The notes under the pieces are model-generated. The model worked only from the letters and a program-made list of their open reading frames with translations. It searched no databases and was not told the DNA's origin. DNA of 64,000 bases, from positions 10,466 through 74,465 of IMG/VR virus record IMGVR_UViG_3300010430_000022, one strand, 5' to 3'. Positions within the stretch are counted from its first letter, which is position 1. The number at the start of each line of letters is the position of its first letter. Position numbers and translations under genes: made by a program. Shown piece by piece: positions 49,978 to 63,498 of this stretch. The stretch is from a virus.

Positions 49978-50642
49978 GAGGTTTTTGGCATCGATCCGGC
50001 AGATCCCCAGTGCTCGTCGTCGACGTGATGCAGCGTGTGCTTCACTCCGAGGTCACTGAGAACCTTCCTGAAGTGTTCAATGTGCTCGGGACGGTCGTCC
50101 CACATGTGAACGTGTTTGAGATGTGGGTGCTCTGAATGGAAACGCTTGAGCATGTGCCCCTTCCACTCAGCAGTCTTCATAGGCTTCTTCTTACCGTCCT
50201 GCGGAGGCTTCAGGAAGAGGTCGTGACCGTGCTTGTGTCCCCTCACCCCGAGCTTGTGCAGGGTATGAGACACAGCGTCTTGCATATCCGGCTTGGCGAC
50301 GCGTCCGGTCATGACCACGACTCTGCTATGCGGAGATGCTTTAGCGGCGTGATAGTTCTTGAGCGTGTGCTCGATTGGGTGCGTCTCGAACGGGTGACGA
50401 AGCGTCTTGTGGTCCCCCCACCAGTCACCAGGCTTGCTGCCTCGTGGATTCGTCCTGCTACGTGAGTGGTAGCGATAGAGATCCTTGTTCTGCGATGTTG
50501 GCTCAGGCGTCCTGGCCAGGGTGCCGTCCATGTCGAAGATGTGGAGGTGTTTCGCATTGCGAGACTCAATGAGGAGCGCAACCTCCTCTGCTCGGATGGC
50601 CTCAAGAATCGGGCTGATTGCTCGAATGGTGCGACTTCTCAT
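49974..50642 (-). CDS. HAD phosphatase (RNA-repair / Pnkp 3'-phosphatase-like), His-rich
   Basis: 'IFDMDGTLARTP', 'WW', 'MTGR', 'LFLKP', 'WK', 'WDDRPEH'. Confidence 0.85.
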   Translation of the reverse strand: MRSRTIRAISPILEAIRAEEVALLIESRNAKHLHIFDMDGTLARTPEPTSQNKDLYRYHSRSRTNPRGSKPGDWWGDHKTLRHPFETHPIEHTLKNYHAAKASPHSRVVVMTGRVAKPDMQDAVSHTLHKLGVRGHKHGHDLFLKPPQDGKKKPMKTAEWKGHMLKRFHSEHPHLKHVHMWDDRPEHIEHFRKVLSDLGVKHTLHHVDDEHWGSAGSMPKTS

Positions 50643-52786: not shown

Positions 52787-54529
52787 ATGGCTAACAAGGC
52801 AGTTTTCGGTAGCGCACAGCGTGGCCGCAAGGTCCCCGAGACCGACACCAAGAACAAGGCCGGTGGCGTCGCGTACGCATTCGGTCCCCAGCACGCCCTG
52901 GCGCAGCTTGCCTGCACCGGAACCTTCAACGACACGTTCTACGGCAAGGCCGTCGACCAACTGGAGGGCATCCGCAAGGCCGCCGACCAGTGCTCGCCGG
53001 AGTTCATCGCTAAGTGTGCCGTCTACGCCCGTGAGCGTGGCTACATGAAGGACATGCCGGCCGCTCTGGCCGTCATCCTGTCCAAGGCCGATCCGGTTCT
53101 GTTGGACAAGGTCTTCGACCGGACCATCGACAACGGCAAGCAACTTCGGAACTTCGTCCAGTTCATCCGTTCGGGCGCCTTCGGGCGTAAGAGCTTCGGC
53201 TCCGGCCCGAAGCGGCTGATCGCACGCTGGTTCAACCAGCGCTCGGACGAGGCGATCTTCCGCGCTTCCGTCGGGAACTCCCCGTCGCTCGGTGACGTCC
53301 TCAAGCTGGCTCGCGTTTCGGGTAAGGCCGTTTCGCCACAGCGTCGTGCTCTCTACGGTTACCTGATCGGTTGTCGCGCTGCGGCTCTTGGTGAGGAACT
53401 GGAGCAGGTCACCAAGACCGAGGACGGCAAGACTCGTCGCACCAACCGCTTCAATCCAGCCGATCTCCCTGAGATCGTCAAGGGCTACGAGGCGTGGAAG
53501 CGCGGCGAGCGGACCGGCGAGGTCCCGAACGTCGACTTCCGGATGCTGACCGGCCTCCCGCTCACGCGTGAGGACTGGGTGCAGATCGCGAAGCGTGGTC
53601 GCTGGCACCAGACTCGGATGAACCTGAACACCTATGCTCGTCATGGCGTGTTCGAGATCACCGGCATGGAGGCAGTGATCGCCGGCAAGCTGAAGGATGA
53701 GGACCAGATCCGCAAGGCGAAGGTCTTCCCCTACCAGCTTCTCGCGGCCTACCTGAACACGGGTCCGGAGAACACCACTCCTGGCTACGGTGGCTACGGC
53801 TGGCGGCGTGCTCAGGTGACGGCGAAGCCTCAGGTCACGGTCCCCCAGAGGGTCCGCCTGGCGCTTCAGGACGCGCTGGAAGTCGCAACCGAGAACGTTC
53901 CTGCCTACGATGGCCGCGTTGCGGTCGTTGTGGACACGTCGGGCTCGATGCAGTCTTCGGTCACTGGTATTCGTCAGGGTGCTACCTCGAAGGTCACCTG
54001 TGTGGACGTTGCGGCCCTCGTGGCAGCGACGGTCATGCGGAAGAACCCTCTCGCGGTCGTCGTCCCAGTCGACACCCAGGTTCACCGGTCAGACATGCTG
54101 AACCCTCGGGACAGCATCATGACCAACGCGGACAAGCTCCGTCGCCTCGGCGGCGGTGGGACGGACCTCGGTGCCGCCATGCGGTTCATCGAGACCTCCA
54201 AGGCCGCGCCAGACCTCATCATCATGGTGAGTGACAACGAGTCGTGGTTCAACCCAGGTGGCGCGCGTCGCTACTACCAGGGGACGTCGGTGCAAGAGTC
54301 GTGGCAGCGGATCCGTTCGCGGAACCCCAACGCCAAGATGGTCTGCATCGACATCCAGGTTACGCAGAACACGCAAGCGCTCGACGGACACGGTGTCATG
54401 AACATCGGTGGGTTCTCAGACACGATCTGGAACACCATTTCACGGTTCGTCTCGAACGAGGGTCCCGAGACCTGGGTCGAAGAGATCAACTCTGTTGATC
54501 TCGACGCGCCCAAGCGGGTCAGGGGCTAG
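52787..54529 (+). CDS. rsr: Ro60/Rsr TROVE-domain RNA-binding protein with vWA domain
   Basis: AGGAGGT RBS; 'N.AGG.AY', 'TGTFNDTFY', 'MKDMPA', 'RMNLNT..RHG', 'FPYQL', vWA 'DTSGSM', 'GGGTD', 'SDNESW', 'IGGFSD'. Confidence 0.93.
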   Translation: MANKAVFGSAQRGRKVPETDTKNKAGGVAYAFGPQHALAQLACTGTFNDTFYGKAVDQLEGIRKAADQCSPEFIAKCAVYARERGYMKDMPAALAVILSKADPVLLDKVFDRTIDNGKQLRNFVQFIRSGAFGRKSFGSGPKRLIARWFNQRSDEAIFRASVGNSPSLGDVLKLARVSGKAVSPQRRALYGYLIGCRAAALGEELEQVTKTEDGKTRRTNRFNPADLPEIVKGYEAWKRGERTGEVPNVDFRMLTGLPLTREDWVQIAKRGRWHQTRMNLNTYARHGVFEITGMEAVIAGKLKDEDQIRKAKVFPYQLLAAYLNTGPENTTPGYGGYGWRRAQVTAKPQVTVPQRVRLALQDALEVATENVPAYDGRVAVVVDTSGSMQSSVTGIRQGATSKVTCVDVAALVAATVMRKNPLAVVVPVDTQVHRSDMLNPRDSIMTNADKLRRLGGGGTDLGAAMRFIETSKAAPDLIIMVSDNESWFNPGGARRYYQGTSVQESWQRIRSRNPNAKMVCIDIQVTQNTQALDGHGVMNIGGFSDTIWNTISRFVSNEGPETWVEEINSVDLDAPKRVRG

Positions 54530-54591: not shown

Positions 54592-54774
54592 ATGCGGAAG
54601 AAGAACTATAAGCTGTTGGCAGAGCGGGCGATCCGCCTCAGCTATCATCATCCGATACCCGTCAAGTGCCCCTCCTGTGGTGCGCTGGGACGGCACGCTG
54701 ATAAGGAGACGCTCTGGTGCATTCTCTGCGCCGAAGCCCTTGAGGCGCTCCAGAAACCAAACACAGGGGCCTGA
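54592..54774 (+). CDS. Small Zn-finger protein
   Basis: GAGG RBS; CPSC...CILC. Confidence 0.45.
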   Translation: MRKKNYKLLAERAIRLSYHHPIPVKCPSCGALGRHADKETLWCILCAEALEALQKPNTGA

Positions 54775-54840
54775 ATGCCTGTTGGTGCTACTTCTTATGC
54801 AAAGAAACCACCTCAGCATCGACGATTCTCGTCAGGCCCT
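54766..54840 (+). ncRNA. Y-RNA-like element A (minimal)
   Basis: GGGCCTGAATGC...TACTTC...TTCTCGTCAGGCCC with paired ends. Confidence 0.65.
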
Positions 54841-55022
54841 CTTTTCTCTCGCACACAGCCGCACGCGACTGGTATGAGAGACTGAGGCACCTAGCCTCAC
54901 CGCTTCTTTGACAATTCGCTTGCCTTCTAACGAAGCAGGGTCCCCTAGAGATTCGCACTTGTGCGGTCTCTGAGATGGGGGCAAAAGGCCGGGTGGGAGT
55001 CCCGGGTCCTGCTACTAACGAA

Positions 55023-55160
55023 GGTCCCAAATGCCTGTAGGAAGTACATCCACTCCAACAACGTGGACGTAGCTCAATTGGCAGAGCGCCGGGTTAATAG
55101 CCCGGAGGATGTGGGTTCGAATCCCACCGTCAAATTCTTTCTGCGCTACTCGTTGGGGCC
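55023..55160 (+). ncRNA. Y-RNA-like element B containing a near-complete tRNA module (AAT loop)
   Basis: GGTCCCAAATGCC..TACATC [tRNA-like] ..CTACTCGTTGGGGCC. Confidence 0.75.
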
Positions 55161-55171
55161 TATTACACAAA

Positions 55172-55280
55172 CGTTTGAAGGGAGTTGCTGGGGTAGGTAG
55201 AGCCTATCTTTCGATGTTGAGTTTCAAGGACTCCGGTCCCTCTTCTGTCGGCCCCAGCCGCTCCCTGATCTCTTCTAAAC
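55172..55280 (+). ncRNA. Unassigned long-hairpin RNA
   Basis: GTTTGAAG/CTTCTAAAC and GGAGTTGCTGGGG/CCCCAGCCGCTCC pairing; lies between two Y-like RNAs. Confidence 0.4.
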
Positions 55281-55284
55281 AAAC

Positions 55285-55410
55285 GATCCGAATGCTTGTT
55301 GGGGATTACATCAACCATACGAGCGGGGCAGTAGTTGTCGCACGCCGAAAGGCGTGAGTGGGAGCATCACCCACCCGGTAAAACTTCTCTCTGGCGCTAC
55401 TCGTCGGATC
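55285..55410 (+). ncRNA. Y-RNA-like element C (tRNA-like module, GNRA-capped anticodon arm)
   Basis: GATCCGAATGC..TACATC..CACGCC-GAAA-GGCGTG..CTACTCGTCGGATC. Confidence 0.75.
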
Positions 55411-55420
55411 ACTCATCTAA

Positions 55421-55835
55421 GGGGACGACATGGCTTCGACTGGCTGTGGAAATCTCAAGTGCGTGTCGAGGTTGATCGAATGGCCTCGTTAAAAGTCGAT
55501 CACAACGCTAACTGCCAACGCAACTAGCACCCCAGAGTGGCTCTCGGACGATGCCCTCGCCAGCTTCATGGCTGACGTGGACGCGCCCGTGGCCGCACTC
55601 GTCTAGCACGAGACTCTCTCGACCTGATCCCCCGCCCATGGGGTGACGTGTTCGAGCCACAAGATGGGCTTTAGCCGGACCTGATCCTCGTCGGGAAAGG
55701 CCAAGAACAAACAGAGGAAGCCGAGTTCCCATCATTGCTCACCACAAGGGGACGGGTACATAACCGGGTGAGATACACACGTAGATCTTGAGCCAGAAGT
55801 AGTTCAGGACCCGAGTTCGATTCTCGGCGTCTCCA
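55421..55835 (+). ncRNA. ssrA: tmRNA
   Basis: 5' GGGGACGAC..GGCTTCGAC; 3' GAGTTCGATTCTC..CGTCTCCA with G3:U; pk1-like region, TAACT then tag ORF 55514-55606. Confidence 0.93.
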
Positions 55836-55892
55836 AAGCCGCTAAACAGGGAGCGGTTCCCGGCTTGCCATAGCCGGGGAGAATCCCTGCTT

Positions 55893-56028
55893 GAAGAAGG
55901 ACAACACTCCAGCACATCACGGTCTTCAACCGGTTGTCGACGCTTGCTGGGTGTGCCTGCCGGTTGCAGGCGACCCGCCTCGAACGGGTCGTGGTCCCCC
56001 ACGCGAGGTTCGATTCCTCCCTTCTTCG
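55893..56028 (+). ncRNA. 8/4-fold tRNA-like RNA with an extra arm
   Basis: GAAGAAGG/CCTTCTTC acceptor; GAGG-TTCGATT-CCTC T arm; anticodon arm with TCG loop. Confidence 0.55.
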
Positions 56029-56080
56029 TGTTGGTTGTGTACAGACCAACGTGGGCGTCTGGGTAGCTCCCAGATGTCAA

Positions 56081-56141
56081 GAAAGAGTGCTGTGGTGGCA
56101 GGCGCGCAAGCGTCGTGAGGTTCGACTCCTCGACTCTTCCT
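56081..56141 (+). ncRNA. Mini tRNA mimic without an anticodon
   Basis: AAGAGT/ACTCTT stem; GGCGC-GCAA-GCGTC; GAGG-TTCGACT-CCTC. Confidence 0.5.
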
Positions 56142-56176
56142 CTCTAGAGAATGCCAGGCACCAGCATTGAAGGGCC

Positions 56177-56273
56177 ACCGGCGAGACCAGACGTCGCCTT
56201 GATTGGGCTGCCTCCTCCCCCTTGGCCGCCCTCCGGAAATCGAGGAGCGCGGGTGCGACTCCCGTCGCCGGCA
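56177..56273 (+). ncRNA. Degenerate tRNA-like RNA
   Basis: CCGGCG/CGCCGG stem; T arm GCGGG-TGCGACT-CCCGT; irregular middle. Confidence 0.3.
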
Positions 56274-56308
56274 TCAAACACGTCGCCTCACGTTGGTATA
56301 ACCAGCGC

Positions 56309-56890
56309 GTGGGGAGACCGATCCAAAGCGAGTTCAAGTGTGAGTTCTGTCGCAAGCCCGTCGTGGCCACAGGCGGGAGACAACGCACCTGCTTAGGGAA
56401 ATCCTGCAAGCTCAAGCTCCGCAGCAAACGTCGCAAGAAGAAGCGACGCGTCGAGCGCAAAGAGTCGCCCAAGACATGCGTCTGGTGTCTTGGTCCAATT
56501 ACATCGATAGGCAAGCGAAAGTATCACCCTGAGTGTCGAGCAGAGAAGAACCGCGAGCGTGTTCGTCTCTACCATGCGACGCACGAGCCAAACTCCGATC
56601 CGGAGCCGCGCACGTTCAAGACATTCGTGACTTGTGTGATCTGCAAGAAGCGCGAGCGACGATCTGGGGCTCGGCAAGTGACCTGCTCCAACGACGTCTG
56701 CAAGCGCGCGAGAGCGCAGCAGAACAAGAAGCGTCGCCGAGAGATGGCGAAGCACATGGAAACGCTTCGAGAGGCTCTACGAGAGAAGAAAGAAGCGGCG
56801 TTCCACGCCTATAAGGGACCGAAGCGAGACGTTCGTGCAGGTCTCGTCATTGAGGCACACGACCGCTTGATCCATCGAATCACGCATTAG
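56309..56890 (+). CDS. Basic multi-Zn-finger protein
   Basis: Three CxxC...C/H..C modules; TGGTATAAC promoter-like element 6 nt before GTG. Confidence 0.65.
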   Translation: MGRPIQSEFKCEFCRKPVVATGGRQRTCLGKSCKLKLRSKRRKKKRRVERKESPKTCVWCLGPITSIGKRKYHPECRAEKNRERVRLYHATHEPNSDPEPRTFKTFVTCVICKKRERRSGARQVTCSNDVCKRARAQQNKKRRREMAKHMETLREALREKKEAAFHAYKGPKRDVRAGLVIEAHDRLIHRITH

Positions 56891-56904
56891 CCAAAGGAGA
56901 GGTT

Positions 56905-57426
56905 ATGGCAGCGTTGTCCAAGGAAGAACGAGAAACCCGCGTCAAGTGCATGAAGCGCTTCGGCATCTGGCTCAAGGGGCAGGGCAAGACCCAACGTTGG
57001 GCCGGCGAGACCCTCGGGATCTATCACGGCTACGTGAGCAACCTCATCACCGGCAAGCAAGTGGCTAGTGAGGAGGTCTGTCGAGGCGCCGACAAGCTGA
57101 TGGGCCCAAAGAAGAAGGCGAAGCGGAAGACCAAGAAGCCGGCGGAGAGTCCCATTGAGACCCTTCTTGTGATGAAGACCTGTCGGACCTGCGATCAGTG
57201 GGTCAAGAAGTCGCATCGTTGTGAGAGGCCGAAGCAGCCCGCGGGGCGTCCCAAGCGAGCGGTCGAGCGGAACAGATACATCGCTCGCCGCGCGCCGACC
57301 GTGGTCGAGATCGAGGCTGCCTGCGCCGTGGTGGTATCCTGGATCAGGAACATGCCGCCAGAAGAAGTAACACCGGACGATGTTGTCCACGTCACTAGGG
57401 GGCTGATAGCTGGATTCACCAGCTAG
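56905..57426 (+). CDS. XRE-like HTH DNA-binding protein
   Basis: AAGGAGAGG RBS; 'KTQRWAGETLGIYHGYVSNLITGK'. Confidence 0.7.
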   Translation: MAALSKEERETRVKCMKRFGIWLKGQGKTQRWAGETLGIYHGYVSNLITGKQVASEEVCRGADKLMGPKKKAKRKTKKPAESPIETLLVMKTCRTCDQWVKKSHRCERPKQPAGRPKRAVERNRYIARRAPTVVEIEAACAVVVSWIRNMPPEEVTPDDVVHVTRGLIAGFTS

Positions 57427-57485
57427 AGAAAGAGAGGGCTATCACCAAGAACTCGACGCGAAAGACCTGGCCAGATCCGACTGAG

Positions 57486-57701
57486 TTGAGCGACAAGCGC
57501 TGCAAGCGCTGCGAACAGCCGCTCAAACTCAAGCACCTCCTTCGAGCGAAGGAGAATCACCACCGCCCTCCAGACTTCTGCTACCCCTGTCTCCGTCAGA
57601 CACAGGGGAAGAAGACGTCGCGAGAGCGAAAGATCGAGCTAGCGAAGAAGCGTGCTCGGGAACGTGAGGCCCTCAAGAAGGGTCTAGGTGGTGCCGGCTA
57701 G
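57486..57701 (+). CDS. Small Zn-finger basic protein
   Basis: CKRC...CYPC. Confidence 0.5.
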   Translation: MSDKRCKRCEQPLKLKHLLRAKENHHRPPDFCYPCLRQTQGKKTSRERKIELAKKRAREREALKKGLGGAG

Positions 57702-57752
57702 CTGACGCCACCAATATGGGTCGCGTAGGTAAGAGCCTCCTCGATCCAACCT

Positions 57753-57818
57753 GCCGCTACTCTAGAGAACACTGGCTTTGTACGCTTCGTGTTGAGGGTG
57801 CAAATCCCTTTGGCGGCT
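57753..57818 (+). pseudogene. Degenerate tRNA-Thr(TGT)-like
   Basis: GCCGCTA/TGGCGGC acceptor; GAGGG-TGCAAAT-CCCTT; weak D and anticodon arms. Confidence 0.4.
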
Positions 57819-57882
57819 TTCGCTCTGCTATCCACGGACTTTGGTTGGTGTTAGACTGGCTAGATAGCCCAGGAGACGTCGC

Positions 57883-58233
57883 ATGGCACTCTACACCGCA
57901 CAAACGCTTCTCGTCCTCGAAGGTCTCTATGGCGTCGACTATGTCGACCGTATCCTCGATGAGGGGCTCAGTGATATGGCTCGCAAAGCGAAGCGTGCGC
58001 TAGGCACGAGAGCCGGGGCGGCTCTCGCAACTGGCGCACTCGCACTGGGCAGTGCAGGCGCCATCGGTGGTGGAACGGCTATCAGCTACAAGCGCCACAA
58101 GGATCAACAGGCAGACAACAGAAGGGCTCAGGAGATACAGAAGTCTGGACGCGCTGCTCTGAAGCGAGACAAACGGGCAGGCCAGCAGCGTCTTCGTGAT
58201 CTAGGCTACGTCGTCGACGCGCCGAGACGGTAG
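57883..58233 (+). CDS. Putative internal protein with propeptide and hydrophobic segment
   Basis: AGGAG RBS; MALYTAQTLLVLEG resembles the CCA enzyme N-terminus MYQAHTLLILED. Confidence 0.6.
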   Translation: MALYTAQTLLVLEGLYGVDYVDRILDEGLSDMARKAKRALGTRAGAALATGALALGSAGAIGGGTAISYKRHKDQQADNRRAQEIQKSGRAALKRDKRAGQQRLRDLGYVVDAPRR

Positions 58234-58531
58234 TGCGAGTTACGCAATTTTGAGCATGCGACTAGACATTGCCACATCGTGGCGCTACGCTTAGTTTCCA
58301 GTAGGAGCGACATCTTCAGTGACGTCAACCACCCACATTCAACCCGAACGCTTGCAGCGCCTATCCGGCGCTCGCGGTCAGGGTTCGTCTGTGGAGGGTC
58401 TGCTCCACTCCTTTGGCCGCATTGCCGAATCCAAGCCGATGGATACCTGCGCGTATCCCCGACTTGGATGGTCGGCGAATACGCACAGGCGTTCGCGGCT
58501 CTAGAGGAACCTCACAACAGGAACTTCAAGA

Positions 58532-58569
58532 AAGCCGCAGCGCCAACGCGCTCGCGGCTTCTTTCGTTT
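58532..58569 (+). terminator. Terminator/attenuator upstream of the tRNA array
   Basis: AAGCCGC-AGCGC-CAAC-GCGCT-C-GCGGCTT followed by CTTTCGTTT. Confidence 0.65.
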
Positions 58570-58687
58570 GCATAACTCTACTCAGGACACGAAGAAAGGA
58601 AAAAAACGACGACAGTGACAGGCCGGTGAGGCTTCCTTGTATATGGGGGCAGATCACAACTGACACAGGAGTGAACGAAACACATAA

Positions 58688-58768
58688 CCGTCTGGGGTCC
58701 ACCAAGTGGTGGTGCCGCGCTGTAAACGCGGTCTTTCGAGCAACGTGGTGCGATTCCACGCAGGCGGA
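58688..58768 (+). tRNA. tRNA-Tyr(GTA)
   Basis: CCGCG-CTGTAAA-CGCGG; long variable arm. Confidence 0.75.
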
Positions 58769-58776
58769 TTACACAT

Positions 58777-58844
58777 AGGTCGCGATCTAGGATCGGGCTG
58801 GATTCCAAATCCGGCCTTGCAGGGTGCGATCCCCTGGCGGCCTG
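58777..58844 (+). tRNA. tRNA-Trp(CCA), reduced D arm
   Basis: CTGGA-TTCCAAA-TCCGG. Confidence 0.7.
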
Positions 58845-58959
58845 ACTGAAAGAAGATGAGCCTCGGCTCTACATCTCGGTGTCGAACACTCGTGTCGGCA
58901 TCTAGCCCTGTAGGACGAAGCGATTCAGACGTCACTTGCCCTTTCACAATTCGGTGCTT

Positions 58960-59042
58960 GCCAGTCTGGCGGAACAGCAGACGCGCTACTTTCAAAAGGT
59001 AGTGTCCTTCGGGGCGTCCGGGTGCAAATCCCGGGACTGGCA
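58960..59042 (+). tRNA. tRNA-Leu(CAA)
   Basis: CTACT-TTCAAAA-GGTAG; long variable arm. Confidence 0.88.
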
Positions 59043-59047
59043 TTAAC

Positions 59048-59116
59048 TCGGCTGAATGCCAGCTACGACTACATCTTCCAAATATGACATGTCGTGGCGA
59101 CTCACTCGTCAGTCGA
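59048..59116 (+). ncRNA. Y-RNA-like element D (minimal; TTCCAAA loop)
   Basis: TCGGCTGAATGCC..CTACATC..CACTCGTCAGTCGA. Confidence 0.7.
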
Positions 59117-59122
59117 ACACAC

Positions 59123-59196
59123 GCTGCCGTAGCCCAACTAGCAGAGGCGTCTGGTTCAGAACCAGAAGGTTGGAGGTGCAAATCCTCTCGGCAGCA
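59123..59196 (+). tRNA. tRNA-Leu(CAG), short variable loop
   Basis: TCTGG-TTCAGAA-CCAGA. Confidence 0.8.
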
Positions 59197-59200
59197 AAGA

Positions 59201-59272
59201 GCAGGAGGACGGTGGTGCAATTCCACCCGACTGGCGGAAGTCGGTCTGTAGTTCAGTAAGAAGAACACCTGC
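59201..59272 (+). ncRNA. Circularly permuted tRNA-like RNA
   Basis: GCAGG - T arm GGTGG-TGCAATT-CCACC - closed acceptor CGACT/AGTCG - D arm - CCTGC. Confidence 0.6.
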
Positions 59273-59276
59273 GTTT

Positions 59277-59360
59277 GCCACTGTGATGGAACTAGCAGAC
59301 ATGCCTGCCTCAGAAGCAGGTGCCTTAACGGGCGTGGGGGTGCAAATCCCTTCGGTGGCA
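59277..59360 (+). tRNA. tRNA-Leu(CAG)
   Basis: CCTGC-CTCAGAA-GCAGG; long variable arm. Confidence 0.88.
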
Positions 59361-59361
59361 T

Positions 59362-59434
59362 AGCGGAATAGAGCAGTAGTAGCTCGCGAGTTTCATAAGC
59401 TTTGAGGACGTCGGTGCGAATCCGGCTTCCGCTA
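59362..59434 (+). tRNA. tRNA-Met(CAT)
   Basis: AGCGGAA/TTCCGCT; loop TTCATAA. Confidence 0.8.
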
Positions 59435-59444
59435 AAACAACCAC

Positions 59445-59527
59445 GGTCCCGTGGTGGAACAGCAGACACGCAACATTGAGGGTGTTGTGCTCGAAAGAGC
59501 GTGCAGGTGCAAATCCTGTCGGGACCA
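59445..59527 (+). tRNA. tRNA-Leu(GAG)
   Basis: CAACA-TTGAGGG-TGTTG; long variable arm. Confidence 0.88.
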
Positions 59528-59529
59528 TC

Positions 59530-59612
59530 GACCGAATGCCAGTTGTGACTACATCAACTGAAAACTGATGCTGGGGGAACCCAGCGCTCGTCACGGCATA
59601 CACTCGTCGGTC
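59530..59612 (+). ncRNA. Y-RNA-like element E (CTGAAAA loop)
   Basis: GACCGAATGCC..CTACATC..CACTCGTCGGTC. Confidence 0.72.
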
Positions 59613-59624
59613 ACAATTCAACGA

Positions 59625-59697
59625 CGCGTCCTAGAGCAACGGTAGCTCGCGAGCCTCATAAGCTCTGAGGATTCTGGTTCGATTCCAGAGGACGCTA
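59625..59697 (+). tRNA. tRNA-Met(CAT), unpaired C1
   Basis: Loop CTCATAA; canonical GG and TTC. Confidence 0.85.
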
Positions 59698-59698
59698 T

Positions 59699-59773
59699 CG
59701 CGGAGTGGAGCAGTCAGGTAGCTCGGTGGGCTCATAACCCGCAGGTCACGAGGTTCGAATCCCGTCTCCGCTA
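59699..59773 (+). tRNA. Initiator tRNA-fMet(CAT)
   Basis: C1 mismatch; GGG/CCC anticodon stem. Confidence 0.88.
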
Positions 59774-59891
59774 TACAAGCCTGTGAAGACCACCTTGCGC
59801 AGGCAGGGGCTAATCTCACCAGTGGTGGTCACGAACGAGATTCTGGATCTGGTTTTGGTAGCCGTGCGGCTACGAGGGCGCAGATCCGCAC

Positions 59892-59962
59892 GGGGCCCTG
59901 GTGAAACAGGATCACACTTGTCTGGCAGACAAGAGTTAGGGGTGCGACTCCCCTGGGCTCCA
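59892..59962 (+). tRNA. tRNA-Ala(GGC)
   Basis: G3:U70; CTTGT-CTGGCAG-ACAAG. Confidence 0.88.
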
Positions 59963-59967
59963 TACAC

Positions 59968-60039
59968 GCTCCTGTAGCTTAGGCAGCAGAGCACATCCTT
60001 GGTACGGATGAGACCCCAGTGCAAGTCTGGGCAGGAGCT
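59968..60039 (+). tRNA. tRNA-Thr(GGT)
   Basis: CATCC-TTGGTAC-GGATG. Confidence 0.85.
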
Positions 60040-60106
60040 TGGGTCGGCCTCTAGGATCATGGGGCATGTCAAGGGGGTCAATGCCACCCCCGACCAGAAC
60101 ACACAT

Positions 60107-60179
60107 AGCGTGTGGGCCATACGAGTGCGGCACACCTTTCATACGGGTGAGATACCGGGTGCAAGTCCCGGACACGCTA
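60107..60179 (+). tRNA. tRNA with CAT anticodon (Met or Ile2)
   Basis: CACCT-TTCATAC-GGGTG. Confidence 0.75.
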
Positions 60180-60211
60180 TCAGACGAACCGGTTGATCGC
60201 CGGGGAGTCGG

Positions 60212-60317
60212 TGAGGATTAGTGGACTAACAACTACGTCGAAGCTGGACGCGGTAGGTCGGTTGACTCTGAATCAGCAGGTGCGGGTGAGGGCGGCAGCC
60301 CAATGCCCGCCCCTCAT
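60212..60317 (+). ncRNA. tRNA-Gln(CTG)-like RNA with D-arm and T-loop insertions
   Basis: GTTGA-CTCTGAA-TCAGC; T stem GCGGG/CCCGC enclosing an extra hairpin; TGAGG/CCTCA. Confidence 0.5.
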
Positions 60318-60318
60318 T

Positions 60319-60391
60319 GGATCCGAAGCTAAACGAGTGAAGCACCCGGTTCTTACCCGGGGGATACAGAGTGCAATTCTCTGCGGATCCA
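60319..60391 (+). tRNA. tRNA-Lys(CTT)
   Basis: CCCGG-TTCTTAC-CCGGG. Confidence 0.85.
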
Positions 60392-60406
60392 TCAGTTGAA
60401 CTATCT

Positions 60407-60479
60407 GGATCGGTAGCTCAGCCAGTAGAGCACGAGTCTGAAGAACTCGGAGTCGGGGGTGCAAATCCCTCCCGGTCCA
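60407..60479 (+). tRNA. tRNA-Phe(GAA)
   Basis: CGAGT-CTGAAGA-ACTCG. Confidence 0.88.
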
Positions 60480-60482
60480 TAC

Positions 60483-60555
60483 CAGGGATTAGTGTTTAAC
60501 AGCAGCACGAGGCATTTGGGATGCTTTAGTCGAGGTGCAACTCCTCGATCCCTGA
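60483..60555 (+). tRNA. tRNA-Pro(TGG)
   Basis: AGGCA-TTTGGGA-TGCTT. Confidence 0.85.
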
Positions 60556-60559
60556 TTAA

Positions 60560-60633
60560 CGGAGCGTGGCGCAGTCTAGTAGCGCGCTGGTCTGGGGGAC
60601 CAGAGGTCGCAGGTGCAAATCCTGTCGCTCCGA
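60560..60633 (+). tRNA. tRNA-Pro(GGG)
   Basis: CTGGT-CTGGGGG-ACCAG. Confidence 0.9.
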
Positions 60634-60689
60634 TTGGAACGCGAGCGGTCAGCCGAGGTGCTGATCGGCCCTAGTGGCTTCCAACGCAA

Positions 60690-60760
60690 GGATTCGTGGT
60701 GTAACAGAAGCATAGGACCCTGAAAAGGTCGCGGCAGGGGTGCAAATCCCTTCGAATCCA
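60690..60760 (+). tRNA. tRNA-Phe(GAA), second copy
   Basis: GACC-CTGAAAA-GGTC. Confidence 0.8.
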
Positions 60761-60890
60761 TTCGTCGAATGCCAGGTAGGACTACATCATTTGGTTCGAG
60801 TCCAATCTGCTCCTTCGGGAGTTAGCCCCGTGGCGGGGACATCGACCTCACGGTCGGTGGATTGATCGTCCGCCAACTCTCGTCGACGAA
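60761..60890 (+). ncRNA. Y-RNA-like element F (YrlA-type permuted tRNA module)
   Basis: TTCGTCGAATGCC..CTACATC; T arm TTGG-TTCGAGT-CCAA; TTCG-closed stem; D-like arm; ..CTCTCGTCGACGAA. Confidence 0.78.
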
Positions 60891-60893
60891 CAC

Positions 60894-60965
60894 CGGTCTA
60901 TGGTGAAACAGTTATCACGCGTCTCTGATAAGGACGAGTTCTAGGTGCGATTCCTGGTAGACCGA
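60894..60965 (+). tRNA. tRNA-Ile(GAT)
   Basis: CGTCT-CTGATAA-GGACG. Confidence 0.85.
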
Positions 60966-60969
60966 TTTT

Positions 60970-61043
60970 GGCCATGTAGCTCAGATAGTCAGAGTACCGC
61001 CCTGTCACGGCGGGGGTCGGGGGTGCGAAACCCCTCATGGTCG
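60970..61043 (+). tRNA. tRNA-Asp(GTC)
   Basis: CCGCC-CTGTCAC-GGCGG; G73. Confidence 0.88.
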
Positions 61044-61044
61044 T

Positions 61045-61098
61045 CGGGTGAATACGAAAGTGGTGAGAGCCCACGCAGGTGAGATCCCTGCCATCCGT
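61045..61098 (+). ncRNA. Truncated tRNA-like RNA
   Basis: CGGGTG/CATCCG stem plus GCAGG-TGAGATC-CCTGC T-like arm. Confidence 0.35.
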
Positions 61099-61102
61099 TT
61101 AT

Positions 61103-61175
61103 GGTCCTGGAGTTCGTGTAGCAGAATAGCCGCCTGTCGAGCGGAAGGTTGTGGGTGCAACTCCCATCAGGACCG
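61103..61175 (+). tRNA. tRNA-Asp(GTC), second copy
   Basis: CCGC-CTGTCGA-GCGG; G73. Confidence 0.8.
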
Positions 61176-61242
61176 TTTGGAAGCCCAGACCGGGCTAGTC
61201 TTTCTGGCTGGAACAGCCAGCCCCAAGACCGGTGAGGGAACC

Positions 61243-62082
61243 ATGGGAACGCTAGAAGAGGCCGCGAAGGTAATCGAGGAGGCAGACGCTCTCCTCATAA
61301 CGACCGGCGCAGGAATGGGAGTCGACTCAGGACTCCCCGACTTCAGAGGGAGCCAAGGCTTTTGGAAGGCTTATCCGCCCTACAAGAAGCTGAACGTGTC
61401 CTTCTCCGAAATGGCGAGCCCGGATTGGTTCAAGAAGGACCCTGAGTTCGCTTGGGGCTTCTACGGCCAGAGACGCAACCTCTACCGGGTGACGGAGCCG
61501 CACAACGGCTACGCGATCCTCAAGAGGTGGGCCGAGGAGAAGCCGAAGGGCTACTTCGCGGTCACGTCGAACGTCGACAACGCCTTCCAGAAGGCCGGCT
61601 TTGACGCGTCTCGAATCGCTGAGGTGCATGGGACCATCGAATGGAATCAGTGCATGACCTTCTGCGGCGCCAGGATCACTCCGGCAGGCCCAGAGGAGAT
61701 TGAGGTCGACACAGGGACAATGAGGGCCTCAGGGGCCCTACCAACGTGTCCTGGCTGCGGTGAGGTCACGAGGCCGAACATCATGATGTTCGGGGACCCC
61801 TACTTCGACAAGAAGCGTCAGGAGGAGCAACTCGAACGCTTCTACGCGTGGCTCAAGGAACTCAAGACAGGCGAGGCCGACCTCGTCGTAGTCGAGTGTG
61901 GAGCCGGGGTTGAGATCCCGACGATCAGAGACATCTCCGACCAGATCGGAATCGACGAATGTGGAGGAACCCTGGTGAGGGTGAACCCAGTCCACTCCCG
62001 AGCGCGGTGGGGCAGTCATGTCAGCCTGCACTTCGGGGCGCTTGAAGCCTTGGAAGGGATCGAGCAAGTGATCGCAGTTTGA
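61243..62082 (+). CDS. Sir2-family (sirtuin) NAD-dependent enzyme
   Basis: 'GAGMGVDSGLPDFRG', 'TSNVD', 'EVHG', Cys pairs, 'RPNIMMFGD', 'ECGAG..IPTIR', 'RVNP'. Confidence 0.92.
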   Translation: MGTLEEAAKVIEEADALLITTGAGMGVDSGLPDFRGSQGFWKAYPPYKKLNVSFSEMASPDWFKKDPEFAWGFYGQRRNLYRVTEPHNGYAILKRWAEEKPKGYFAVTSNVDNAFQKAGFDASRIAEVHGTIEWNQCMTFCGARITPAGPEEIEVDTGTMRASGALPTCPGCGEVTRPNIMMFGDPYFDKKRQEEQLERFYAWLKELKTGEADLVVVECGAGVEIPTIRDISDQIGIDECGGTLVRVNPVHSRARWGSHVSLHFGALEALEGIEQVIAV

Positions 62083-62149
62083 ACACACGCGGGTTAGCCC
62101 CGCATGAAGGTCTCTTCGCCGCCCTCGGGAGGCGTTGAGACTGAGCATT

Positions 62150-62223
62150 GGCCCTATCGTCTAGTCTAGTTAGGACGTCAGCCTCTCAAGCTGAAAACCC
62201 GGGTGCGAATCCCGGTAGGGTCA
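62150..62223 (+). tRNA. tRNA-Glu(CTC)
   Basis: TCAGC-CTCTCAA-GCTGA. Confidence 0.9.
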
Positions 62224-62231
62224 TCAGTTTT

Positions 62232-62303
62232 CCCTCTATAGCTTATGAAGTAGAGTTCCCGCCTGTCACGCGGAGGAACCGAGTGCAAGTCTCGGTAGAG
62301 GGG
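62232..62303 (+). tRNA. tRNA-Asp(GTC), third copy
   Basis: CCGC-CTGTCAC-GCGG. Confidence 0.8.
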
Positions 62304-62339
62304 TCTTGTGGGGAAGGGGTGAAAGCCCTGACCCTGCTT

Positions 62340-62411
62340 GCAGGTGTAGCTCAGTAGTAGAGCGTCACGTTGCCAACGTGAGGGCCGTCGGTGCGAATCC
62401 GATCACCTGCT
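62340..62411 (+). tRNA. tRNA-Gly(GCC)
   Basis: TCACG-TTGCCAA-CGTGA; U73. Confidence 0.9.
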
Positions 62412-62415
62412 TCAC

Positions 62416-62488
62416 GCGGTCGTAGTGTTTAACAGCAGCACGCGAGCTTGCCATGCTCGAAGTTGGGGTGCAACTCCCCACGACCGCT
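62416..62488 (+). tRNA. tRNA-Gly(GCC), second copy
   Basis: CGAGC-TTGCCAT-GCTCG. Confidence 0.88.
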
Positions 62489-62491
62489 TCT

Positions 62492-62563
62492 GCTTCCATA
62501 GTGTCAACAGCAGCACGACTGTTTCGTAATCAGTTAGTCTCGGTGCAACTCCGGGTGGAAGCT
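62492..62563 (+). tRNA. tRNA-Thr(CGT)
   Basis: ACTG(T)-TTCGTAA-(T)CAGT. Confidence 0.82.
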
Positions 62564-62693
62564 TTCAGCGAATGCTTTGGTAGGAGTACATCCTGACTGA
62601 TAATCAAGACGACTCGGGCGCAACTCCCGGGGCCCCCACTACGAGGGGGTGCGTAGTGCTAGTAAACCCTCTTGCCTACTACTCGTCGCTGAA
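62564..62693 (+). ncRNA. Y-RNA-like element G (permuted tRNA-Ile(GAT)-like module)
   Basis: TTCAGCGAATGC..TACATC; TGA-CTGATAA-TCA; T arm; GCCCCC/GGGGGT closed acceptor; ..CTACTCGTCGCTGAA. Confidence 0.78.
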
Positions 62694-62697
62694 CCAA

Positions 62698-62769
62698 GGA
62701 CCCGAAGCATAAGCAGTGATGCACTTGGCTCTTAACCTTGGGAATGGGGTGCAAGTCCCTGCGGGTCTA
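62698..62769 (+). tRNA. tRNA-Lys(CTT), second copy
   Basis: Loop CTCTTAA; GGACCCG/CGGGTCT. Confidence 0.75.
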
Positions 62770-63498
62770 TCCAGCCTTACGCTCAGACGTGTCGATTGAC
62801 TGGATCGAGTGCTTCAGGCCGTGAAGGGCGCTGTTGTCACTGTGCTCCTTCTCCCAGGGCGCCTTGAAGGCGCCCTCCTTATCGAGGGCCTTGAACGGCG
62901 TCGGGTGATCCTTCAGGCTGTGCAGCTTTTCAGCGAAACTGTCAGCTTCCTTCTTCATGCCACCGAGGCGCTTCGCGCTCTCGTCGTCCTTCGGGAAGTG
63001 AGCCCCGCGCTTACGGATCTGATCGAGGGGAGCGTGGAAGTGGGTCACCTTCACATGGTAGCCATGCTTGGCTGCGTGGTGCAGGTAAGGCTTCATCTGC
63101 CAAGCCGCCGTGTTCGTGTTGTCCACGATGACGTGCGGGTGACCAGCAGCCATGTGCTCCGCAGCTTGCTGCTGAGCATGGGCATGAGCCTCGCCGAGCT
63201 TGCTCGGATCAAACGAGGGAGTGCCGCCGGGCTTGTCCGGAGGACCGTAGAGTCCTGGGTGCTTGTCGGCTGAGACCACAGCAGCGCCCGAGTGGTGCTT
63301 TGCGATGTGAGTCGACTTGCCTGACCCAGGTGCGGCGACCATGAAGTGAAGCACCTTCTTTTGCGCAGGCGACGGCTCGTCTGCCTCAAGGAACGGTGAG
63401 TAGACCGCCTCCTGGAGGTTTCGGACATACTTGTCCCGTCGAATGGATTCAACGAGAGGAAGGGTGCGGGAGCGACGGATACGGTCGTGAAGGTTCAT
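62767..63498 (-). CDS. P-loop polynucleotide-kinase-like protein (AAA_33 / N4BP2-like), His-rich
   Basis: 'AAPGSGKST', 'VSAD', 'FDPSKLGEAH', 'VIVDNTN..WQMKPY'. Confidence 0.85.
   Translation of the reverse strand: MNLHDRIRRSRTLPLVESIRRDKYVRNLQEAVYSPFLEADEPSPAQKKVLHFMVAAPGSGKSTHIAKHHSGAAVVSADKHPGLYGPPDKPGGTPSFDPSKLGEAHAHAQQQAAEHMAAGHPHVIVDNTNTAAWQMKPYLHHAAKHGYHVKVTHFHAPLDQIRKRGAHFPKDDESAKRLGGMKKEADSFAEKLHSLKDHPTPFKALDKEGAFKAPWEKEHSDNSALHGLKHSIQSIDTSERKAG

What the first reader, a model, noticed from the sequence alone, without database searches (positions are those of the whole stretch)
54766..62693. Y-RNA inserts present anticodon-like 7-nt loops of different specificity (possible tRNase decoys)
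Seen: apical loops read ATGCAAA (Cys-like, A; weak), TTAATAG (Ile AAT, B), TTCCAAA (Trp, D), CTGAAAA (Phe, E) and CTGATAA (Ile GAT, G). Three are identical to anticodon loops of real tRNAs in this array. None has a free acceptor end, so they should not be chargeable. Inference: Ro-protected decoys for anticodon nucleases, or guides for tRNA-interacting enzymes.
Basis: inference. Interest (0 to 1): 0.72.

Follow-up and report, generated by a model that had tools for sequence, protein, structure and literature searches.

The report
Phage Y RNAs carrying anticodon-arm look-alikes
Next to its Ro60 gene this marine-sediment phage encodes seven small Y RNAs, and three or four of them display a hairpin shaped like a tRNA anticodon arm, a feature that recurs far above chance in related Y RNAs and could help to test what these RNAs do.

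Summary
All five 7-mers sit where stated, inside seven real Y-RNA-like genes (A-G) downstream of a Ro60/TROVE gene.

How well each loop holds up:
- B: a robust anticodon arm inside a complete tRNA-like cloverleaf.
- G: a plausible hairpin. The same CUGAUAA loop sits on four different stems in unrelated loci.
- E: near-canonical, with an A.C mismatch next to the loop. Perfect homologues exist in phage Mx1 and in L206.
- D: weak. It has a 3-bp stem, and its UCCAA motif is common in short forms.
- A: not formed.

The new result is family-wide. Of 165 related Y RNAs from 78 other loci, 21 carry a YU-NNN-RA 7-nt loop on a hairpin of 3 bp or more, right after the Ro-binding helix. Shuffles give 1.3, and mirrored patterns give 0-1. 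The triplet varies, even between apparent orthologues.

Rfam's YrlA consensus treats this hairpin as an insertion. I found no paper describing it.

A decoy role against anticodon nucleases is untested. A related idea was already raised for YrlA (Hughes 2020). Identity to the phage's own tRNA loops is no more than expected (P≈0.06).

This scan had noted phage Ro60 with several partner RNAs on other DNA, but not this hairpin.

Verdict: a new variant of a known kind.

The parts
52787..54529 (+). Ro60/Rsr-like gene (580 aa), the presumed protein partner of the Y RNAs
   Evidence: Pfam vWA_Ro60 1.2e-10 and TROVE 1.3e-06. It is 45% identical to the TROVE protein of Myxococcus phage Mx1. Thousands of Ro60 homologues were found.
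54766..54840 (+). Y RNA A, short form. The claimed loop ATGCAAA (54797-54803) is not formed.
   Evidence: Scaffold 15/15 pairs. The constrained fold gives a 5-nt loop AUGCA on UUCUU/AAGAA. The CAAAGAAACC motif is shared with L083 and L097 elements.
55023..55160 (+). Y RNA B. The Y scaffold encloses a first hairpin (55045-71, loop UCCAACAAC) and an unpermuted tRNA-like cloverleaf (55063-55135) with an anticodon arm at 55089-55105 (loop TTAATAG).
   Evidence: ARAGORN calls 'tRNA-Ile(aat)'. Rfam tRNA 56.1 bits. Arm pairs p≈1.0. By my own pairing of the sequence, the acceptor has only 5/7 pairs. The payload is homologous to a free-standing odd tRNA of Mx1.
55285..55410 (+). Y RNA C, long form with GNRA and other hairpins and no anticodon-like loop
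   Evidence: Scaffold 14/15 pairs; fold.
59047..59117 (+). Y RNA D, short form. Terminal loop UACAUCUUCCAAAUAUGACAU; the candidate hairpin at 59072-59086 (CAUC-UUCCAAA-UAUG) is weak.
   Evidence: Scaffold 15/15 pairs. Pair probabilities ≈0.17 with a C.U mismatch. UCCAA and CAAA are enriched in short-form loops generally.
59529..59613 (+). Y RNA E. Hairpin 59552-59570 (CAUCAA-CUGAAAA-CUGAUG, with an A.C mismatch next to the loop), followed by a GGAA-tetraloop hairpin.
   Evidence: p≈0.35-0.40. The same layout with perfect 5-bp/7-nt hairpins occurs in Mx1 (CAUCU-CUGGAAA-AGAUG) and L206 (CAUCU-CUGAUAA-AGAUG).
60762..60892 (+). Y RNA F, YrlA-like, with a T arm directly after UACAUCAU and a closed UUCG acceptor hairpin. 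It has no anticodon-like hairpin.
   Evidence: Rfam YrlA 26.8 bits, below the gathering score of 69. Sequence.
62565..62692 (+). Y RNA G. Anticodon-arm-like hairpin 62592-62608 (CCUGA-CUGAUAA-UCAAG), a 5-nt linker, a T-arm-like hairpin at 62614-62630, a closed hairpin and a degenerate D region.
   Evidence: Scaffold 15/15 pairs. The hairpin is in the constrained minimum-energy fold. An identical loop sits on different stems in L106, L154 and L206.
60894..60965 (+). tRNA-Ile(GAT), whose anticodon loop CTGATAA equals the loop of G
60690..60760 (+). tRNA whose loop reads as Phe(GAA); the loop CTGAAAA equals the 7-mer in E
   Evidence: Rfam tRNA 50.9 bits. Loop read. ARAGORN does not call it.
58777..58844 (+). 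Uncalled tRNA-Trp(CCA)-like cloverleaf with a miniature D arm. Its loop TTCCAAA equals the 7-mer in D.
   Evidence: Sequence. Fold -34.7 kcal/mol, z=-2.7. No ARAGORN or Rfam call.

Best explanation
The stretch holds seven Y RNAs of the bacterial YrlA/YrlB kind. All lie on the strand of the phage's Ro60 gene, and four of them (D-G) are interleaved flush with tRNA genes.

Each has the same scaffold. The 5' and 3' ends pair. The 5' strand carries the Ro60-recognition motif (C/U)(G/A)AAUGC. An 8-bp covarying helix follows, then UAC(AUC).

On top of the scaffold sits a variable module derived from tRNA. In G and E the module starts with a short hairpin built like an anticodon arm: a 3-5 bp stem and a 7-nt loop reading Y-U-NNN-R-A. 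In B a whole tRNA-like cloverleaf, with its anticodon arm, is enclosed. D has a degenerate version and A has none.

Shown: the scaffold, the hairpin architecture, and its strong enrichment with a variable triplet across the wider family.

Inferred:
- The RNAs are cut out of the tRNA-array transcript by RNase P and RNase Z and are bound by the phage Ro60.
- The hairpin is kept by selection as an uncharged surrogate of an anticodon stem-loop. It would engage a protein that reads anticodon loops.
- That partner would be a nuclease that is competed away or sensed, or a modification or repair enzyme that is tethered to Ro60.
For: Scaffold:
- Seven copies share the 5' and 3' motifs.
- In six paralogues 47 of 48 helix cells pair, with 2-4 pair types per position.
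- The same scaffold gives 182 hits in 2.26 Mb of Ro60 neighbourhoods and pattern loci, against 2 in reversed sequence.

Partner and kind:
- A Ro60/TROVE gene lies next door.
- Elements that carry the hairpin pass Rfam's YrlA cut-off: L165 81.7, L170 77.8 and L158 71.8 bits.

Hairpin:
- A 7-nt loop is the commonest best hairpin after the helix (33.6 against 15.4 in shuffles).
- YU-NNN-RA loops occur in 22 of 171 elements against 1.0.
- Outside the window they occur in 21 of 165 against 1.34±1.13 (maximum 5 in 200 dinucleotide shuffles). Mirrored or complementary patterns give 0-1.
- CUGAUAA sits on four different stems.
- Apparent orthologues keep the frame and change the triplet: L127/L137/L158 and L173/L175.
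- In long forms the distance from UAC to the T arm has a mode of 22-24 nt, which equals a 5+7+5 arm plus a 5-nt variable loop.

Context:
- The phage carries an RNA-repair set. It comprises a CCA-adding-type enzyme, HAD_SAK_1, 2H/LigT-like proteins and an AAA_33 protein that I read as kinase-like.
- Y RNAs D-G abut tRNA genes within a few bases.

Literature:
- YrlA mimics tRNA and is acted on by tRNA enzymes (PMC4201824).
- A competitive-inhibitor role against an anticodon nuclease has been proposed for YrlA. The nuclease in that study cuts between two adenines at positions 36/37 of the Trp, Cys, Phe and Tyr tRNAs (PMC7790460).
Against: - The stems are short. Many long-form hairpins have only 3 bp, and the next bases pair elsewhere in Rfam's model.
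- In the window itself, pair probabilities for G and E are about 0.35-0.4, D is weak and A fails.
- Only about 13-18% of family members have the feature. Rfam's consensus lacks it. Streptomyces phage NootNoot's Y RNA has an 11-nt loop instead.
- Five of 30 triplets begin with A. That is uncommon among the ARAGORN-called tRNAs of these loci, so the triplets look unconstrained.
- Short-form loops share a UCCAA/CAAA consensus, which may be a separate motif.
- Salmonella YrlA is not cut by the SOS-induced nuclease (PMC7790460).
- I have no transcript, binding or modification data.
Confidence: 0.55

Rival explanations
1. Evolutionary leftover. Y RNA modules descend from circularly permuted tRNAs, and the hairpin is the old anticodon arm that persists, or is re-acquired from tRNA genes, without a present role. 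The loop frame would survive only because a U-turn loop is a stable cap.
For: - The segment hairpin + AGGUC-like linker + T arm reads like tRNA positions 27-65.
- Many family members have lost the hairpin, and Rfam's consensus lacks it.
- The triplets look unconstrained (5 of 30 begin with A).
- B's payload is homologous to a free-standing tRNA-like gene in Mx1.
Against: Neutral drift should erode loop positions 2, 6 and 7 as fast as the triplet. Instead the oriented pattern is about 16-fold enriched, and mirrored patterns are absent. The frame is kept between apparent orthologues whose triplets differ.
Confidence: 0.22
2. A sequence motif unrelated to tRNA. The apical loops, especially of short forms such as A and D, carry a UCCAA/CAAA-type single-stranded motif that binds an effector such as the KH/S1 domains of PNPase. 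The anticodon likeness would be incidental.
For: - Enriched in 60 short-form loops: CAAA 22 against 8.4, TCCAA 8 against 1.4, CAAAA 13 against 3.2.
- The motif appears in different registers relative to the ACAU/AUGU stem.
- Y RNA loops tether PNPase in Deinococcus and in Thermus phage phiLo (PMC4201824, PMC12135203).
Against: It does not explain long-form loops with quite different triplets (GAU, CAU, UCU, GUU, CUU) that keep only the Y-U...R-A frame.
Confidence: 0.13
3. Chance. Short A/U-rich hairpin loops happen to read like anticodon loops, and the reader chose the register that fits.
For:
- Identity to the phage's own tRNA loops is within expectation.
Against: There are 21 of 165 independent elements against 1.3 in dinucleotide-preserving shuffles (maximum 5 of 200), and 0-1 for mirrored patterns. 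The same loop occurs on four different stems.
Confidence: 0.05
4. B is a working tRNA, and the Y scaffold around it is a processing or delivery frame. RNase P and RNase Z would release a tRNA that the phage CCA-adding enzyme completes.
For: - Rfam tRNA 56.1 bits and an ARAGORN call.
- A CCA-adding-type enzyme is encoded.
- M. smegmatis YrlA is cut by RNase P and receives CCA (PMC4201824).
- The Mx1 homologue stands alone, and I read a perfect 7-bp acceptor stem in its sequence.
Against: - By my own pairing of the sequence, B's acceptor stem has two G.A mismatches (5/7 pairs).
- Its 5' strand is predicted to pair with UACAUCCAC instead.
- By background knowledge, an AAU anticodon is not used by bacterial tRNA-Ile.
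- The Mx1 homologue has a 9-nt loop.
Confidence: 0.05

Closest known systems
YrlA (Rfam RF02553), the tRNA-like Y RNA bound by bacterial and actinophage Ro60/Rsr (Chen et al. 2014, PMC4201824; structure in bioRxiv 10.1101/312249)
   Same: - It lies beside Ro60 on the same strand.
- The ends pair into a stem with the 5' CGAA-type motif.
- The module carries a T arm, a closed acceptor hairpin and a D arm, seen in F, partly in G, and in many relatives.
- Several Y RNAs per locus are common.
   Different: - The published structure 'lacks the anticodon loop', and the optional hairpin upstream of the T arm is called a poorly conserved 'V' arm.
- Here that hairpin has an anticodon-loop frame with a variable triplet.
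- Rfam aligns it as an insertion.
- No window element reaches Rfam's cut-off (best is F at 26.8 of 69 bits).
YrlB and other short Y RNAs (S. Typhimurium YrlB; Thermus phage phiLo Yrl1/Yrl2, PMC12135203)
   Same: A stem-bulge-stem scaffold with a CGAA motif and a small apical loop, as in A and D. PNPase and Ro60 complexes are reported for phiLo.
   Different: No anticodon-like reading of the apical loop has been reported. Homology of A and D to these RNAs was not tested here, because no sequences were available to me.
D. radiodurans Yrn1
   Same: Chen et al. 2014 modelled a potential 'anticodon arm' with a 5-bp stem in this Y RNA.
   Different: That loop has 6 nt. The RNA belongs to a separate lineage with a different arm order. 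No variable-triplet series was described.
tRNA-like decoys and substitutes in phage-host tRNA conflicts. From my own knowledge, not checked here: phage tRNAs that escape or neutralise anticodon nucleases.
   Same: Same setting: a phage tRNA array plus RNA-repair genes, and RNAs that present anticodon-loop shapes.
   Different: Those are chargeable tRNAs. The Y RNAs here are closed or permuted and are presumably bound by Ro60. No nuclease partner is known.

Membership tests
Bacterial/phage Y RNA (YrlA/YrlB class) | Encoded close to a Ro60/Rsr (TROVE + vWA) gene, on the same strand | tested here: met
   Ro60 lies at 52787-54529 (+). A-G lie at 54766-62693 (+), 0.2-8 kb downstream.
Bacterial/phage Y RNA (YrlA/YrlB class) | 5' and 3' ends pair into a bulged stem whose 5' strand carries the GNCGAAN0-1G-type Ro60 motif | tested here: met
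   All seven carry (C/U)(G/A)AAUGC after a 6-8 bp closing stem, followed by an 8-bp covarying helix. The family scan gives 182 hits against 2 in the control.
Bacterial/phage Y RNA (YrlA/YrlB class) | Bound by Ro60 in vivo or in vitro | not testable with these tools
   Needs pull-down or gel-shift experiments.
YrlA (Rfam RF02553) | Score at or above Rfam's gathering cut-off (69 bits) | tested here: not met
   Best in the window is F at 26.8 bits (18.2 bits). Relatives with the same scaffold do pass (71.2-81.7 bits).
YrlA (Rfam RF02553) | Permuted tRNA-like domain: T arm, closed acceptor hairpin, D arm | tested here: inconclusive
   F has a T arm (UUGGUUCGAGUCCAA) and a UUCG-capped hairpin. G has a T-arm-like hairpin and a closed hairpin but a degenerate D region. 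A, D and E lack the domain. B has an unpermuted cloverleaf.
tRNA (element B only) | Cloverleaf recognised by tRNA models | tested here: met
   Rfam tRNA 56.1 bits (cut-off 29) and ARAGORN tRNA-Ile(aat).
tRNA (element B only) | Seven-pair acceptor stem with ends that can be freed and charged | tested here: not met
   By my own pairing of the sequence, GUGGACG/CGUCAAA gives 5 of 7 pairs with two G.A mismatches. No CCA is encoded. The minimum-energy fold pairs the 5' strand with UACAUCCAC instead. Processing was not testable.
Anticodon stem-loop mimic | About 5-bp stem closing a 7-nt loop with U at position 2 (U33) and a purine at position 6 (R37) | tested here: inconclusive
   Met for B (5 bp). 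G has 4 of 5 pairs. E has 5 pairs plus an A.C mismatch at the loop. D has 3 pairs plus a C.U mismatch. A is not met.
Anticodon stem-loop mimic | The frame is conserved and the triplet variable across homologues | tested here: met
   21 of 165 elements against 1.34±1.13 in shuffles. About 20 different triplets occur. Apparent orthologue sets change the triplet within the same frame.
Anticodon stem-loop mimic | Recognised by, or competes for, an anticodon-loop-binding protein (nuclease or modification enzyme) | not testable with these tools
   Needs cleavage or competition assays, or modification mapping.

The most novel reading that the evidence does not exclude
Ro60-associated Y RNAs in bacteria and phages carry an exchangeable anticodon stem-loop surrogate. 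Held and shielded by Ro60, it would act as a decoy, competitive inhibitor or damage sensor for anticodon-loop nucleases that cut at the A-A step after the anticodon. Phages with several paralogues, here GAU, GAA, CCA and AAU, would cover several tRNA specificities at once. That would link Y RNAs mechanistically to the tRNA-damage response of the rsr-rtcBA operon and to phage tRNA-repair kits.
Probability: 0.15. Interest if true: 0.85.

Novelty: new variant of a known kind. Interest (0 to 1): 0.6.

Why it matters
Bacterial Y RNAs are known tRNA mimics, but their molecular partners beyond Ro60 and PNPase are unknown. The solved YrlA structure is described as lacking an anticodon loop.

A recurrent hairpin with an anticodon-loop frame and a free triplet gives a concrete handle for finding those partners:
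- It predicts that enzymes which read anticodon loops see these RNAs. Candidates are nucleases, or modification enzymes of the t6A, i6A and m1G37 pathways.
- It turns the published 'competitive inhibitor of an anticodon nuclease' idea into a testable design: mutate the loop frame against the triplet.
- In phages it may add a layer to the conflict over tRNAs.

It also bears on how Y RNAs arose from tRNAs.

Tried and rejected
- Megablast of the array against 50,697 phage records gave no match.
- Closer Ro60 relatives exist (61-90% identity). True orthologues of A-G were therefore never compared.
- The MAFFT alignment of 16 short forms put the 3' helix strand out of register, so I built no covariance model and used a pairing-aware script instead.
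- Sequencing runs: no RNA holder is listed. DNA contigs from marine-sediment metagenomes match exactly at low depth, so there was no microdiversity to use.
- I tested whether Y loops copy tRNAs of the same locus. The result was 5 of 18 against 2.3-2.5 expected, P≈0.06, not significant. One apparent match in L106 was ARAGORN calling the Y RNA itself.
- Known phages: Myrna gave no YrlA match at E≤0.01 within 5 kb of Ro. NootNoot's Y RNA has an 11-nt loop on its pre-T hairpin. The feature is therefore not universal.
- The hairpins occur equally with and without tRNA arrays (10 of 72 against 12 of 99), so they are not specific to tRNA-array (phage-like) loci.
- The supplements of Chen 2014 and two Y RNA reviews are not held. 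Validated Salmonella and M. smegmatis YrlA sequences could not be inspected.
- The promoter/terminator scan found nothing useful inside the array.

Full report
**What is there.** The window is the last 64 kb of a 74.5-kb IMG/VR virus contig that is estimated to be about 26% complete. Exact pieces of it occur at low depth in marine-sediment metagenomes.

A 580-aa Ro60/TROVE + vWA protein is encoded at 52787-54529. Its closest phage relative is the TROVE protein of Myxococcus phage Mx1, at 45% identity.

Downstream lie a tmRNA, more than 25 tRNA genes and seven elements with one common frame, all on the + strand:
- A 54766-54840
- B 55023-55160
- C 55285-55410
- D 59047-59117
- E 59529-59613
- F 60762-60892
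- G 62565-62692

Each element has the same frame. A 6-8 bp closing stem is formed by the two ends. The 5' strand then carries (C/U)(G/A)AAUGC. An 8-bp helix follows, then UAC(AUC) and a variable insert. On the 3' side come the return strand of the helix and a CUCGUCG-like segment.

In six paralogues 47 of 48 helix cells pair, with 2-4 pair types per position.

F matches Rfam YrlA weakly, at 26.8 bits against a cut-off of 69.

D, E, F and G start and end within a few bases of flanking tRNA genes. Release by tRNA-processing enzymes is therefore a reasonable inference, but it is not shown.

**The family.** I wrote a pairing-aware script for this frame and ran it over 2.26 Mb. The sequence comprised pattern hits in viral contigs and Ro60 neighbourhoods from metagenomes and viral contigs. 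It found 182 elements in 81 loci, against 2 in reversed sequence.
- Several copies per locus are common. Fourteen loci have four or more, and L206 has seven.
- Members pass Rfam's YrlA cut-off, for example L165 81.7, L170 77.8 and L158 71.8 bits.
- The window elements therefore belong to the known Ro60-Y RNA kind (Chen et al. 2014, PMC4201824).
- Mx1 has unannotated copies. One of them lies under an annotated 'hypothetical protein'.

**Checking the five loops.** All five 7-mers are at the stated places. With the scaffold constrained the results are:

| Element | Result |
|---|---|
| B | Arm CCGGG-UUAAUAG-CCCGG is firm (p≈1.0). |
| G | CCUGA-CUGAUAA-UCAAG is in the minimum-energy fold (p≈0.36-0.39). 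|
| E | CAUCA(A)-CUGAAAA-(C)UGAUG forms at p≈0.35-0.40. An A.C mismatch next to the loop makes it a 9-nt loop thermodynamically. |
| D | Only CAU/AUG pairs at p≈0.17, with a C.U mismatch next to the loop. |
| A | Folds as UUCUU-AUGCA-AAGAA. The claimed loop is absent. |

The three identities to real tRNA loops are correct. However, the 'Trp' gene at 58777-58844 is called by neither ARAGORN nor Rfam. It does fold as a cloverleaf with a tiny D arm (z=-2.7).

Such identity is also expected. Across 12 loci with tRNA arrays, 5 of 18 Y loops equal a co-resident tRNA loop, against 2.3-2.5 when the tRNA sets are swapped between loci (P≈0.06).

Across the family, the hairpin directly after the helix most often has a 7-nt loop (33.6 against 15.4 in shuffles).
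- Loops that read Y-U-NNN-R-A and are closed by at least 3 bp occur in 22 of 171 distinct elements, against 1.0 in shuffles.
- Leaving the window out, the count is 21 of 165. Dinucleotide-preserving shuffles give 1.34±1.13, with a maximum of 5 in 200.
- The mirrored pattern A-R-NNN-U-Y gives 0, and other controls give 0-1.
- Triplets are diverse: GAU, CCA, CUU, GUC, GCU, GGA, CAU, UCU, GUU, AAU, ACG and more.
- CUGAUAA occurs on four unrelated stems: G UGA/UCA, L106 UUUGC/GCAAG, L154 CAC/GUG and L206 CAUCU/AGAUG.
- E's layout recurs with perfect 5-bp/7-nt hairpins in Mx1 (CUGGAAA) and L206 (CUGAUAA).
- Elements that look orthologous keep the frame and change the triplet. L127, L137 and L158 read UCC-[CUCAUAA / UUAAAGA / CUUCUAA]-GGA. 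L173 and L175 read CAU-[UUCCAAU / CUACGGA]-AUG.

In long forms the hairpin is followed by an AGGUC-like 5-nt linker and the T arm. The distance from UAC to the T arm has a mode of 22-24 nt, which is the length of an anticodon arm plus a variable loop.

**Caveats.**
- Many long-form stems are only 3 bp. Rfam's YrlA alignment treats the 13-14-nt hairpin as an insertion after CUAC and pairs the following CGU/GGC with the strand after the D arm. This explains the recurrent 'three pairs, mismatch, one pair' pattern. The hairpin may therefore be a small side arm at a three-way junction.
- Only about 13-18% of members have it. They occur with and without tRNA arrays.
- Other members carry a UAAYC motif at that site, or nothing.
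- Short-form loops are enriched for CAAA, UCCAA and AUGU. D's UUCCAAA and A's GCAAA may therefore reflect that consensus rather than 'Trp' or 'Cys'.
- Five of 30 triplets begin with A. This is uncommon among the ARAGORN-called tRNAs of these loci, so the triplets do not look like copies of working anticodons.

**B is a special case.** Its payload is an unpermuted cloverleaf (Rfam tRNA 56.1 bits). It is homologous to a free-standing odd tRNA of Mx1, which has a 9-nt loop and a perfect acceptor stem. In B the acceptor has two G.A mismatches by my own pairing of the sequence. Its 5' strand is predicted to form the usual UACAU hairpin instead, with loop UCCAACAAC.

**How it probably works.**
- Shown: the scaffold, and the architecture and enrichment of the hairpin.
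- Inferred: Ro60 binding, processing out of the tRNA transcript, and a role as a non-chargeable anticodon stem-loop surrogate offered to a protein that reads anticodon loops.

The setting fits a conflict over tRNAs. The phage encodes a CCA-adding-type enzyme, a HAD_SAK_1 phosphatase, 2H/LigT-like proteins and an AAA_33 protein that I read as kinase-like.

In Salmonella the rsr-yrlBA-rtcBA operon is induced by tRNA halves. These are made by a nuclease that cuts between two adenines after the anticodon of the Trp, Cys, Phe and Tyr tRNAs. The authors suggested that YrlA might inhibit that nuclease competitively (PMC7790460). Nearly all Y loops found here carry such an A-A step.

This is suggestive only. 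A leftover from tRNA ancestry and an unrelated effector-binding motif remain live rivals.

**Novelty.** In the held literature, Y RNAs beside phage Ro60 and their tRNA mimicry are known (PMC4201824, PMC12135203, bioRxiv 10.1101/312249). The solved YrlA 'lacks the anticodon loop', and the pre-T hairpin is called a poorly conserved 'V' arm. Only Deinococcus Yrn1 was modelled with a 6-nt 'anticodon arm'. I found no description of an anticodon-loop frame with a variable triplet.

Earlier notes of this scan record phage Ro60 with several partner RNAs, and other tRNA/Y chimeras, on other DNA. They do not record this hairpin.

I rate it a new variant of a known kind.

Noticed in passing
window 58693-58772 and 58777-58844: Two tRNA-like elements that neither ARAGORN nor Rfam calls. 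One is a Trp(CCA)-like cloverleaf with a 4-bp/3-nt mini D arm (z=-2.7). The other is an upstream piece with an arm GCCGCG-CUGUAAA-CGCGGU (Tyr-like) and a UGCGAUU T arm; its fold is not significant (z=-0.55).
   Followed up: partly
window 58950-62770 (tRNA array): Most phage tRNAs have T loops that read UGCAAAU or UGCGAUU, with G where U55 normally is. Y RNAs B and F keep the canonical UUCGA.
   Followed up: no
window 55840-56290 and 57716-57830: Several further structured pieces with T-arm-like hairpins follow the tmRNA and lie between small ORFs. One scores 30.4 bits on Rfam tRNA-Sec, below the cut-off. They are not classified.
   Followed up: no
window 55421-55836: A phage tmRNA (130 bits) with a 30-residue tag peptide ending in VAALV, which I judge unusually long.
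   Followed up: no
window 54592-54774, 56222-56890, 56905-57426, 57486-57701: Small ORFs rich in Lys and Arg, with repeated CxxC pairs (zinc-ribbon-like), sit among the RNA genes. The three checked have no Pfam match; 57486-57701 was not checked. They may be RNA-binding partners.
   Followed up: partly
window 61048-62082; also 24592-26280, 49417-50642, 50993-52261, 62767-63498: A SIR2-family gene lies inside the tRNA array. An RNA-repair set is dispersed around it: a CCA-adding-type enzyme, a weak match to a tRNA-ligase phosphodiesterase domain (CPDase-like), a HAD_SAK_1 phosphatase, a LigT-like + DUF5661 protein and an AAA_33 protein that I read as kinase-like.
   Followed up: partly
L001 (Myxococcus phage Mx1 OR576727) 253-380 and 607-710: Two unannotated Y-RNA-like genes lie between tRNA genes. 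The second lies under the annotated hypothetical protein WNM70101.1 (locus 610-732), which is therefore probably not a gene.
   Followed up: partly
L140 4723-4882: A short Y RNA whose loop is CUGCUAA lies directly 3' of a tRNA-Ser(GCU) with the identical anticodon loop.
   Followed up: no
family loops listed: By my own post-hoc count over a small sample, all seven anticodon-like loops with G at the third triplet position also have G at loop position 6. Loops with A, U or C there almost always have A. By background knowledge, this mirrors the G36-G37 rule of real tRNAs.
   Followed up: no
L206 9392-9543 and L205 9111-9250: Other payload layouts occur. In these Y RNAs a hairpin with a 7-9-nt loop follows the D arm, at the normal anticodon-arm position. 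The Y helix would then sit at the variable-loop site.
   Followed up: no
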